Below, piece after piece: positions 41,038 to 44,000 of a stretch of DNA of 64,000 nt; the first letter of the stretch is position 1; every line of letters begins with the position of its first letter. Where the stretch lies: NCBI RefSeq assembly GCF_030384885.1, contig NZ_CP128613.1. One strand, written 5' to 3'. Position numbers: made by a program. Source of the stretch: Escherichia coli (lineage in GTDB: Bacteria; Pseudomonadota; Gammaproteobacteria; Enterobacterales; Enterobacteriaceae).

Positions 41038-44000
41038 TAATGATGTGCCACATCCGGCATGTTATGCCGGATGTGGCGTATGCTGATAAGACGCGCCAGC
41101 GTCGCATCAGTCAACCGGCTTGGGCGTTAGATGTCGGATGCGGCGTGACCGCCTTATCCGACCTACGGGGTGGAGCACTTCACGGCAGTTTAGAGGACTA
41201 CCGCGTTGTCAATTTTCTCTTCCGCCTTCCAGATGCGGTATTTCACATCTACATTGTCTGGCGTATACACCACGATCGGCAGCTTGCTGTTGTAACGCAG
41301 CATTCCAGCATCGCCCAGATACGCGGTGACAAATTTCTTCTCTTTCTTGCCATCCGGGCAGGCCATCATCGTGGAAACCGGCGAGCTAACTTTATCAAAG
41401 ACGTAATAATCATAGCCCCAGCCTTCCAGCGTTTTGCTTTCCAGCTTCCCGCCGAGACGATGCAAATTGCAATCGACTTCCAGCGTCTGACCGATTAACA
41501 GTTCTACTTTCAGGGTAGATTCATCTTCTTGCGGGGTTAACTGAATCACCTGACGCTTCATGCCTTTTTCAGCTTGCGGATAAGGCGCGATTTTTTCCAG
41601 TGGCTGGACGCTCTCTGCCGCCCAGGCGGAAGTGGTAGCGAAAGCGGCAAACAATACTGCAGGTAGAATGGTCTTCATTGTTGTATTCCCTTCGTCATTT
41701 ATAGGTTTTCACCGATGATGTCGCTGAAGGTTAACATATTCATCAGATTTATTAATTTGCTTTATGAATAACTTAAAGAACATTCAGACAATTTTACCTG
41801 CTCTTTTAGTGTTAAATTCTGACGAGAGAACAAACCAGTAGAAATATCTCTGGTGAATTAATCGCTATATAAATGTGTTTATAACCATTTGAAATGTGAG
41901 CAAAAGCCCGTTTTTGCCACGCTTCCCGCCACTCTTTTGATCCTGCTACAGGTTTTACCTCGATCGGGGTATGCATCTTTGACACATCCTTTAATATCTT
42001 AGCGGCTATAAAAATGGCTTATTAATTATGCGGTTTATTTGGTCGCTCTCAATTTTCAGAGCGTATTAATGATGGAAGGTCAATGTGAAGATTGATGCAT
42101 CCCGTCGGGGCATACTCACTGGTCGCTGGCGCAAAGCCAGTAACGGTATCCGTCCGCCCTGGTCCGGTGATGAATCTCATTTTCTGACCCATTGCACCCG
42201 CTGTGACGCCTGTATTAATGCTTGTGAAAACAACATTCTGCAACGCGGCGCGGGGGGCTATCCGAGCGTTAATTTCAAAAATAACGAGTGCAGCTTCTGT
42301 TATGCCTGCGCGCAAGCTTGCCCCGAATCGCTATTTTCTCCGCGCCACACCAGGGCCTGGGATTTGCAGTTCACCATTGGGGACGCGTGCCTGGCGTATC
42401 AGTCAGTTGAATGCCGCCGCTGTCAGGATAGCTGTGAGCCAATGGCAATTATCTTTCGCCCGACGCTCTCCGGGATCTACCAGCCGCAACTTAATAGCCA
42501 ACTTTGCAACGGATGTGGAGCATGTGCAGCCAGCTGTCCGGTATCAGCCATAACTGCGGAGTATCTCCATGCACACTAACTGGCAAGTTTGCAGCCTGGT
42601 CGTGCAGGCCAAAAGCGAACGAATTTCAGACATCAGCACCCAACTGAACGCCTTTCCCGGCTGTGAAGTCGCTGTCAGCGACGCGCCGAGCGGTCAGTTG
42701 ATTGTGGTGGTGGAAGCAGAAGACAGCGAAACGCTGATCCAAACCATTGAGTCAGTACGCAACGTAGAGGGCGTGCTGGCGGTGTCGCTGGTTTATCACC
42801 AGCAGGAAGAGCAAGGTGAGGAAACACCATGAAACTCAGTCGTCGTAGCTTTATGAAAGCTAACGCCGTTGCGGCCGCTGCGGCGGCTGCCGGTCTCAGC
42901 GTGCCGGGCGTTGCCCGCGCCGTTGTTGGTCAGCAGGAAGCCATTAAATGGGATAAAGCACCATGCCGTTTCTGCGGTACTGGTTGTGGCGTTCTGGTCG
43001 GAACGCAGCAGGGGCGTGTGGTGGCCTGTCAGGGCGACCCGGACGCACCGGTTAACCGTGGTCTGAACTGCATTAAGGGCTATTTCCTGCCCAAAATCAT
43101 GTACGGTAAAGACCGTTTGACGCAGCCGCTTCTGCGTATGAAAAACGGTAAATATGACAAAGAAGGCGAGTTCACCCCAATCACCTGGGATCAAGCCTTC
43201 GATGTGATGGAAGAAAAATTCAAAACTGCCCTGAAAGAAAAAGGGCCGGAATCGATCGGTATGTTCGGTTCTGGTCAGTGGACTATCTGGGAAGGTTATG
43301 CCGCGTCCAAGCTGTTCAAAGCGGGCTTCCGTTCGAACAACATCGACCCGAACGCGCGTCACTGTATGGCGTCGGCGGTAGTTGGCTTTATGCGTACCTT
43401 TGGTATGGATGAGCCGATGGGCTGCTATGACGACATCGAACAGGCTGACGCGTTTGTGCTGTGGGGCGCTAACATGGCGGAGATGCACCCGATTCTCTGG
43501 TCGCGCATCACCAACCGTCGTCTCTCTAACCAGAACGTCACCGTGGCGGTGCTTTCTACCTACCAGCATCGTAGCTTCGAGCTGGCGGATAACGGCATCA
43601 TCTTTACGCCACAGTCTGACCTGGTGATCCTGAACTACATCGCCAACTATATCATTCAAAACAACGCGATAAATCAGGACTTCTTTAGCAAACACGTTAA
43701 CCTGCGCAAAGGGGCGACGGACATCGGCTACGGTTTACGTCCGACCCATCCGCTGGAAAAAGCAGCGAAGAATCCAGGTTCTGACGCTTCCGAACCGATG
43801 AGCTTTGAAGATTACAAAGCCTTCGTTGCCGAGTATACGCTGGAAAAAACCGCTGAAATGACCGGCGTGCCGAAAGACCAGCTAGAACAACTGGCGCAGC
43901 TGTATGCCGATCCGAACAAGAAAGTCATCTCCTACTGGACGATGGGCTTCAACCAGCATACCCGTGGCGTGTGGGCCAACAACCTGGTCTACAACCTGCA

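What the first reader, a model, noticed from the sequence alone, without database searches (positions are those of the whole stretch)
41947..41981. napF promoter: FNR half-site and NarP 7-2-7 site at the expected 20-bp spacing
tacctcg-at-cggggta is a clean inverted heptamer pair of the NarL/NarP type. Twenty bp upstream, ttgatcctgctaca carries a good FNR left half-site. The centre-to-centre distance matches the reported FNR(-64.5)/NarP(-44.5) layout of napF, placing the transcription start about 65 bp before the GTG start. narP itself is encoded 12 kb downstream.
Basis: partly seen in the sequence, partly recalled or inferred. Interest (0 to 1): 0.3.

Follow-up and report, generated by a model that had tools for sequence, protein, structure and literature searches.

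The report
Known E. coli napF promoter
This is the textbook control region of the E. coli periplasmic nitrate reductase (napF) operon, with its FNR and NarP/NarL binding sites 20 bp apart. It is ordinary, apart from a common single-base variant in the NarP site.

Summary
Both motifs are real, but the reported coordinates are 10 bp too far right. The FNR-type site TTGATcctgCTACA lies at 41937-41950. The 7-2-7 site TACCTCGatCGGGGTA lies at 41956-41971. Their centres are exactly 20 bp apart, upstream of napFDAGHBC-ccmA-H. narP (214/215 identical to K-12 NarP) is 12.5-13.1 kb downstream on the opposite strand.

The window is 100% identical over 6 kb to E. coli strain 2013C-4282. The 81-bp promoter core differs from K-12 at one base: C to T at 41960, in the left heptamer. 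That allele stays within the TACYYMT consensus. An exact copy occurs in 441 of about 5,420 complete E. coli genomes, against 4,949 for the K-12 allele. The site itself is identical in E. albertii; Leclercia has the same T.

Across Escherichia, Citrobacter and Leclercia, the TTGATC half-site, the 7-2-7 site, their spacing and the AATATCTTA -10 block are all conserved.

With the K-12 layout (NarP -44.5, FNR -64.5), the start falls at 42008. That is 77 nt before the GTG, not about 65.

Interest is low.

The parts
41863..41885 (+). ModE-type palindrome CGCTATATAAATGTGTTTATAAC, centre 41874.5, which is -133.5 from the inferred start. It differs from K-12 at 41875 and 41877 (G,G instead of A,A).
   Evidence: Sequence. 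Conserved in E. albertii and Citrobacter, absent in Leclercia. ModE regulation of napF is in held literature (PMC8139620). The -133.5 position is from memory of McNicholas & Gunsalus 2002, which was not read here.
41892..41913 (+). Crp-like site AAATGTGAgcaaaaGCCCGTTT. The left half is good and the right half poor. Centre 41902.5, about -105.5.
   Evidence: GAAATGTGAGCAAAAGC is shared by E. coli K-12, the window and Citrobacter (E. albertii has one change in the last bases); it is absent in Leclercia. A Crp site upstream of the Fnr/NarP sites is from memory of Stewart et al. 2009, not read here. The assignment to this sequence is inference.
41937..41950 (+). FNR site TTGAT-cctg-CTACA. The left half is a perfect match and the right half is 2/5. 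Centre 41943.5, which is -64.5.
   Evidence: TTGATC is invariant in 8 taxa while the right half varies between CTACA and CAACA. There is an FNR ChIP-seq peak at napF/yojO with a weak motif score (PMC3688515).
41956..41971 (+). NarP/NarL 7-2-7 site TACCTCG-at-CGGGGTA, centre 41963.5, which is -44.5. Carries the C to T variant at 41960 relative to the K-12 palindrome TACCCCGATCGGGGTA.
   Evidence: PMC4549865 places the napF 7-2-7 site at -40 to -49.
41992..42000 (+). Overlapping -10 hexamers: TAATAT (41992-41997, promoter P2) and TATCTT (41995-42000, promoter P1).
   Evidence: AATATCTTA is invariant in all 8 taxa, and the hexamers are correctly placed for starts at about 42005 and 42008. The P1/P2 assignment is from memory of Stewart et al. 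2003. The simple sigma-70 scan does not report it because there is no -35 match, as expected for an activator-dependent promoter.
42008..42084 (+). Inferred P1 transcription start (A at 42008) and the 77-nt napF leader.
   Evidence: Arithmetic from the site centres. No RNA data for this strain. The leader fold is not better than shuffled sequence (z = -0.95).
42085..42579 (+). napF coding sequence (GTG start, 164 aa), first gene of napFDAGHBC-ccmABCDEFGH.
   Evidence: The two reference genomes compared (K-12 and 2013C-4282, the latter 100% identical to the window over 6 kb) both carry NapF WP_000686723.1.
54437..55084 (-). narP, the response regulator that binds the 7-2-7 site.
   Evidence: 214/215 identical to the annotated K-12 NarP.
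41812..41976 (-). Annotated small ORF yojO. It lies antisense across the ModE, Crp, FNR and NarP sites and is probably not a conserved protein.
   Evidence: Annotated in K-12. The ORF stops after about 20 codons or fewer (about 16 in Citrobacter) in E. albertii, Citrobacter and a divergent Escherichia genome, while the binding sites are retained.
42025..42052 (-). Divergent sigma-70-like promoter TTGAGA-16-CATAAT inside the napF leader, reading towards yojO and the activator sites.
   Evidence: The same hexamers were assigned to yojO by genomic SELEX of RpoD holoenzyme (PMC3946193).

Best explanation
The region is the napF (periplasmic nitrate reductase) operon control region of E. coli, in a strain essentially identical to 2013C-4282. 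Under anaerobiosis, an FNR dimer binds the weak site TTGATcctgCTACA (41937-41950). When nitrate or nitrite is low, phospho-NarP binds as a dimer to the 7-2-7 inverted heptamers (41956-41971), two helical turns downstream. Together they recruit sigma-70 RNA polymerase to a promoter that has no -35 element, using the -10 hexamer TATCTT at 41995-42000. Transcription then starts at about 42008, 77 nt before the napF GTG. At high nitrate, phospho-NarL competes for the same 7-2-7 site and activates poorly, which limits expression. Upstream ModE-type and Crp-type sites add molybdate and carbon-source input.

Shown here: the sites, their spacing, their orthology to K-12 and their conservation across three genera. 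Taken from the K-12 literature: binding, activation and competition. Inferred: the transcription start in this strain, and near-neutrality of the C to T change at 41960.
For: Gene context is mqo, eco, yojO, napFDAGHBC, ccm, narP. The window is 100% identical over 6 kb to E. coli 2013C-4282. The intergenic region is present once in 5,421 of 5,426 complete E. coli genomes. The 81-bp core is 80/81 identical to K-12.

Phylogenetic footprint over the window, K-12, E. albertii, four Citrobacter genomes and Leclercia: TTGATC is invariant; the 7-2-7 site reads TACC[C/T]C[G/A/C]AT[C/T]GGGGTA with no indel between the sites; two of the four Citrobacter genomes carry the symmetric double change TACCCCAATTGGGGTA; the -10 block AATATCTTA is invariant.

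Literature held here: the 7-2-7 site at -40 to -49 (PMC4549865); napF is one of four genes with a reported 7-2-7 site (PMC2718512); FNR plus NarP-P activate and NarL-P competes (PMC9262595); an FNR ChIP-seq peak lies at napF/yojO (PMC3688515). A start at 42008 also places the ModE palindrome centre at -133.5, matching the value I recall for K-12. narP is present and intact.
Against: There is no transcript or binding data for this strain. The primary papers giving -64.5 and -44.5 were not readable here, so those numbers rest on memory plus the -40 to -49 statement in PMC4549865. On motif score alone the sites are unremarkable. The left heptamer differs from the studied K-12 allele, so quantitative behaviour could differ.
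Confidence: 0.95

Rival explanations
1. The conservation of this stretch reflects the protein-coding sequence of yojO on the opposite strand, not regulatory sites.
For: yojO is annotated across 41812-41976(-) in K-12 and in many other genomes. It covers the FNR, NarP, Crp and ModE sites.
Against: The ORF is cut by stop codons after about 20 codons or fewer in E. albertii, in a divergent Escherichia genome (L003) and in all four Citrobacter genomes. The retained N-terminal 'HTPIGV..AGSKE' is simply the reverse translation of the conserved NarP and FNR sites. Conservation also continues beyond the yojO start into the -10 region.
Confidence: 0.03
2. The C to T change at 41960 makes this a functionally different allele. 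It breaks the perfect palindrome and shifts the NarP/NarL balance, and so the nitrate dose-response of Nap, in the lineages that carry it.
For: K-12 has the perfect palindrome and the window does not. The allele is a stable minority variant: 441 genomes carry the exact 81-mer against 4,949 for K-12, and they include O157:H7, O145 and O169:H41.
Against: T at heptamer position 5 is allowed by the TACYYMT consensus (PMC4886647). E. albertii has the identical site and Leclercia carries the same T, which argues for tolerated variation. The TAC/GTA triplets are untouched. No expression data exist.
Confidence: 0.12
3. The two motifs are chance matches with no function.
For: The strict consensus search is not enriched (2 hits against 2.74 expected), and the FNR right half is poor.
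Against: The sequence is identical to an experimentally dissected promoter. The spacing is exact and free of indels. The sites are conserved across genera that are only about 74% identical over the region. There is an FNR ChIP peak.
Confidence: 0.01

Closest known systems
E. coli K-12 napF (aeg-46.5) operon control region, promoters P1/P2 (Darwin & Stewart 1995; Darwin et al. 1998; Stewart et al. 2003)
   Same: Orthologous locus with the same gene order. The FNR site, spacing, -10 region and leader are identical; the 81-bp core matches at 80 of 81 positions.
   Different: One C to T substitution in the left NarP/NarL heptamer (41960). Two substitutions at the centre of the ModE palindrome (41875, 41877). 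A few further changes upstream and at 42066-42067 in the leader.
Other FNR plus NarL/NarP co-activated promoters with 7-2-7 sites (nirB, nrfA, fdnG)
   Same: FNR plus a 7-2-7 inverted heptamer pair bound by NarL or NarP (PMC2718512).
   Different: As I recall, FNR sits at the class II position (-41.5) in nirB and nrfA, with the 7-2-7 site upstream of it. At napF the order is reversed: NarP is promoter-proximal at -44.5 and FNR lies upstream at -64.5. That is 3 bp away from the canonical class I position of -61.5 (PMC4886647).
Haemophilus influenzae napF promoter (Stewart & Bledsoe 2005)
   Same: Fnr-, NarP- and NarL-dependent control of a napF operon (title cited). A GATC overlaps the predicted FNR site (PMC12345214).
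   Different: A different genus. Its sequence was not compared here.

Membership tests
E. coli napF operon control region (P1: FNR -64.5 / NarP -44.5) | Lies immediately upstream of napFDAGHBC, between eco/yojO and napF | tested here: met
   ORFs and annotation transfer
E. coli napF operon control region (P1: FNR -64.5 / NarP -44.5) | Sequence orthology to the characterised K-12 region | tested here: met
   About 97% over roughly 412 aligned bp, and 80/81 in the core
E. coli napF operon control region (P1: FNR -64.5 / NarP -44.5) | FNR site and 7-2-7 site with centres 20 bp apart | tested here: met
   Centres at 41943.5 and 41963.5. The spacing is invariant in 8 taxa.
E. coli napF operon control region (P1: FNR -64.5 / NarP -44.5) | Transcription start that places the sites at -64.5 and -44.5 | not testable with these tools
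   No RNA data. The conserved -10 hexamer TATCTT at 41995-42000 fits a start at 42008.
E. coli napF operon control region (P1: FNR -64.5 / NarP -44.5) | FNR- and NarP-dependent activation, with NarL competition | not testable with these tools
   Known for K-12 (PMC9262595; PMC1802743). narP is present in the window.
NarL/NarP 7-2-7 binding site | Two TACYYMT heptamers in inverted orientation with a 2-bp spacer | tested here: met
   TACCTCG-AT-CGGGGTA. Each heptamer matches at 6/7, with G instead of T at position 7, as in K-12. Consensus from PMC4886647.
FNR binding site | TTGAT-N4-ATCAA | tested here: inconclusive
   The left half is 5/5 and the right half 2/5, so 7/10 overall. By motif alone it is only a half-site. 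Occupancy is supported by ChIP-seq in K-12 with a weak motif score.
Canonical class I FNR-dependent promoter (-61.5) | FNR site centred at -61.5 | tested here: not met
   With the start inferred from the K-12 layout, the centre is at -64.5, which is 3 bp off (class positions from PMC4886647). This is the known unconventional napF architecture.

The most novel reading that the evidence does not exclude
The natural C to T allele at heptamer position 5 (41960) is shared by about 8% of complete E. coli genomes, including O157:H7 and O145, and by E. albertii. It breaks the perfect palindrome of the K-12 site. It could measurably change the relative affinity of NarP and NarL, and so retune at what nitrate concentration these lineages express periplasmic nitrate reductase in the gut.
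Probability: 0.1. Interest if true: 0.3.

Novelty: already known. Interest (0 to 1): 0.07.

Why it matters
The finding re-identifies one of the best-studied dual-activator promoters of E. coli, so it mainly serves as a positive control for the scan. The only new material is descriptive: the frequency of a single-base allele in the NarP/NarL site, and a cross-genus footprint. That footprint shows the FNR left half-site, the 7-2-7 site, their spacing and the -10 block are conserved. It also shows that the annotated antisense ORF yojO is not conserved.

Tried and rejected
1. Reading the primary papers (PMC193976, PMC107417, PMC2632075, PMC135098, PMC1251606) failed because they are not held. The numbers -64.5, -133.5 and the P1/P2 assignment therefore rest on memory, supported by '-40 to -49' in PMC4549865.
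2. Text searches for '44.5/64.5' found nothing relevant.
3. No supplement of PMC9262595 with the fusion end-points is held.
4. The simple sigma-70 scan does not detect P1, as expected for a promoter without a -35 element. It found only the divergent promoter.
5. The strict consensus search shows no enrichment, so I did not base the claim on motif statistics.
6. The leader RNA fold is not better than shuffles (z = -0.95). The terminator-like hairpin at 42030-42046 is weak, so I rejected a leader attenuator.
7. GATC occurs in both sites, but GATC appears about once per 218 bp in the window, so two in this spacer is not unusual.
8. The NapF-based genome scan returned only seven close orthologous loci. 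The other 14 hits were unrelated ferredoxin-like proteins and were ignored.

Full report
OBSERVATION. The sequence read directly and checked by script shows TTGATCCTGCTACA at 41937-41950 and TACCTCGATCGGGGTA at 41956-41971. Their centres are 41943.5 and 41963.5, so they are exactly 20 bp apart. The finding's coordinates (41947-41981) are shifted by +10, and the TTGAT half-site it cites falls outside them. The heptamer pair is 6/7 symmetric. The FNR site has a perfect left half and a 2/5 right half, which is why it is missing from the list of TTGAT-N4-ATCAA matches with at most 2 mismatches.

CHANCE. A relaxed pattern chosen after seeing the site gives 1 hit against 0.02 expected. The strict published consensus with up to 2 mismatches gives 2 against 2.74. 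TAC...GTA 7-2-7 palindromes with at most one asymmetric position give 1 against 0.34. The motifs alone are therefore only mildly unusual. The case rests on the exact offset of TTGAT (0.0016 per position per strand), the location, and homology.

IDENTITY. The ORFs around the site are yojI, mqo, eco(-), a small antisense ORF, napF (GTG at 42085, 164 aa), napD, napA, napG, napH, napB, napC, ccmA-H and then narP on the minus strand. The 421-bp eco-napF spacer is present once in 5,421 of 5,426 complete E. coli genomes. A 6-kb stretch is 100.0% identical to E. coli 2013C-4282, a human stool isolate from the USA. RefSeq annotation of K-12 confirms the gene names. Window narP (54437-55084, minus strand) is 214/215 identical to K-12 NarP. 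It lies 12.5-13.1 kb from the promoter and is convergent with ccmH.

COMPARISON WITH K-12. Over the 81-bp core (41930-42010) the window differs from K-12 at a single base. K-12 has the perfect palindrome TACCCCGATCGGGGTA, and the window has T at 41960, which is heptamer position 5. The exact window 81-mer occurs in 441 genomes, including O157:H7, O145 and O169:H41. The exact K-12 81-mer occurs in 4,949. T at that position is allowed by the TACYYMT consensus (PMC4886647).

PHYLOGENETIC FOOTPRINT. A scan of one genome per species with NapF returned seven close orthologous loci. I aligned 310 bp upstream of napF from the window, K-12, E. albertii, four Citrobacter genomes and Leclercia. Mean column identity was 74%. 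The main results are:
- TTGATC is invariant, while the right FNR half varies between CTACA and CAACA.
- The 7-2-7 site reads TACC[C/T]C[G/A/C]AT[C/T]GGGGTA, with no indel between the two sites.
- E. albertii has a site identical to the window's, and Leclercia has the same T at position 5.
- Two of the four Citrobacter genomes (C. youngae CCUG 30791 and Cu233) carry the symmetric double change TACCCCAATTGGGGTA, which keeps the palindrome.
- AATATCTTA (41993-42001) and ACACATCC (41982-41989) are invariant.
- GAAATGTGAGCAAAAGC (Crp-like) and the CG[C/T]TATATA...TATAAC palindrome (ModE-like) are conserved in Escherichia and Citrobacter but not in Leclercia.

TRANSCRIPTION START. If the 7-2-7 centre is -44.5, the start is 42008 (an A), 77 nt before the GTG. 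TATCTT at 41995-42000 is then at -13 to -8. TAATAT at 41992-41997 fits a second start about 3 nt upstream, which matches the dual overlapping promoters P1 and P2 that I recall from Stewart et al. 2003. The same start places the ModE palindrome centre (41874.5) at -133.5, the value I recall from McNicholas & Gunsalus 2002. None of this can be tested here without RNA data.

LITERATURE HELD HERE.
- PMC4549865 places the napF 7-2-7 site at -40 to -49.
- PMC2718512 lists napF among the four genes with reported 7-2-7 sites.
- PMC9262595 states that FNR and NarP-P induce napF while NarL-P binding prevents NarP-P binding. It uses a -85 to +19 fusion relative to the proximal promoter.
- PMC1802743 shows NarQ/NarP-dependent napF::lacZ activation.
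- PMC3688515 reports an FNR ChIP-seq peak at napF/yojO with a weak motif score. It lists NarL, NarP, IscR, ModE and BasR as co-regulators.
- PMC8139620 summarises ModE and IscR control and an ArcZ-napF mRNA interaction.

The primary Stewart and Gunsalus papers are not held.

MECHANISM. FNR bound to a weak site at -64.5 and phospho-NarP bound at -44.5 together activate a sigma-70 promoter that lacks a -35 element. Phospho-NarL competes at the same 7-2-7 site. ModE and Crp act from further upstream. The FNR position is 3 bp from the canonical class I position of -61.5 (PMC4886647). This is the known unconventional architecture of napF.

RIVALS. Conservation due to yojO coding is unlikely. The ORF is cut after about 20 codons or fewer outside E. 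coli proper, whereas the binding sites persist. Chance is excluded by orthology and conservation. A functional effect of the T allele cannot be excluded but has no support.

VERDICT. The feature is already known and interest is low.

Noticed in passing
window 41960: C to T polymorphism in the left NarP/NarL heptamer relative to the K-12 perfect palindrome. The exact 81-mer occurs in 441 complete E. coli genomes against 4,949 for K-12 (O157:H7, O145, O169:H41 and others). The site is identical in E. albertii, and Leclercia has the same T.
   Followed up: partly
window 41812-41976 (-), extendable to a GTG at 41985: The annotated small gene yojO runs antisense across the ModE, Crp, FNR and NarP sites. 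The ORF is cut after about 20 codons or fewer in E. albertii, Citrobacter and a divergent Escherichia genome (L003). Its apparent conservation therefore looks like a shadow of the napF regulatory sites.
   Followed up: partly
window 42025-42052 (-): A sigma-70-like promoter, TTGAGA-16-CATAAT (10/12), lies inside the napF leader and points away from napF, through the activator sites. The same hexamers were assigned to yojO by genomic SELEX (PMC3946193). Possible interference with napF P1 has not been explored.
   Followed up: partly
window 41982-41989: ACACATCC, at about -26 to -19 between the NarP site and the -10 hexamer, is invariant across Escherichia, Citrobacter and Leclercia. That is unusually strong conservation for a promoter spacer, and I did not identify a binding factor.
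   Followed up: no
window 41875 and 41877: Two substitutions (G,G against A,A in K-12) lie at the centre of the ModE-type palindrome upstream of napF. Any effect on molybdate control is unknown.
   Followed up: no
window 41939-41942 and 41962-41965: Both the FNR site and the centre of the 7-2-7 site contain a Dam GATC. The central one is lost in three of the four Citrobacter genomes and in Leclercia (ATTG). A GATC overlapping the predicted FNR site at napF has been noted in H. influenzae (PMC12345214). GATC is frequent in the window (294 sites), so this may be incidental.
   Followed up: partly
window 42030-42055: A weak terminator-like hairpin plus T-run (GCGGTTTATTTGGTCGC TCTCAATTTT) lies in the napF leader. 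The fold of the whole leader is not better than shuffles (z = -0.95).
   Followed up: yes
window 55403-57997 (+): An intact 864-aa ORF lies next to narP, where K-12 has the IS5-disrupted yejO autotransporter pseudogene.
   Followed up: no
window 32975-33068 (-), 29238-29314, 41081-41163 (-), 58102-58175 (-), 61893-61918 (-): Rfam matches: MicF sRNA, two naRNA4 (REP-type) elements including one between mqo and eco, a tRNA, and the L25 ribosomal protein leader.
   Followed up: no
L009 about 1201-1245: In Leclercia adecarboxylata, what looks like the 3' end of a tRNA gene (GGTTCGAATCC...CGTACCA) sits about 150 bp upstream of the napF FNR site. It replaces the ModE/Crp region seen in Escherichia and Citrobacter.
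   Followed up: no
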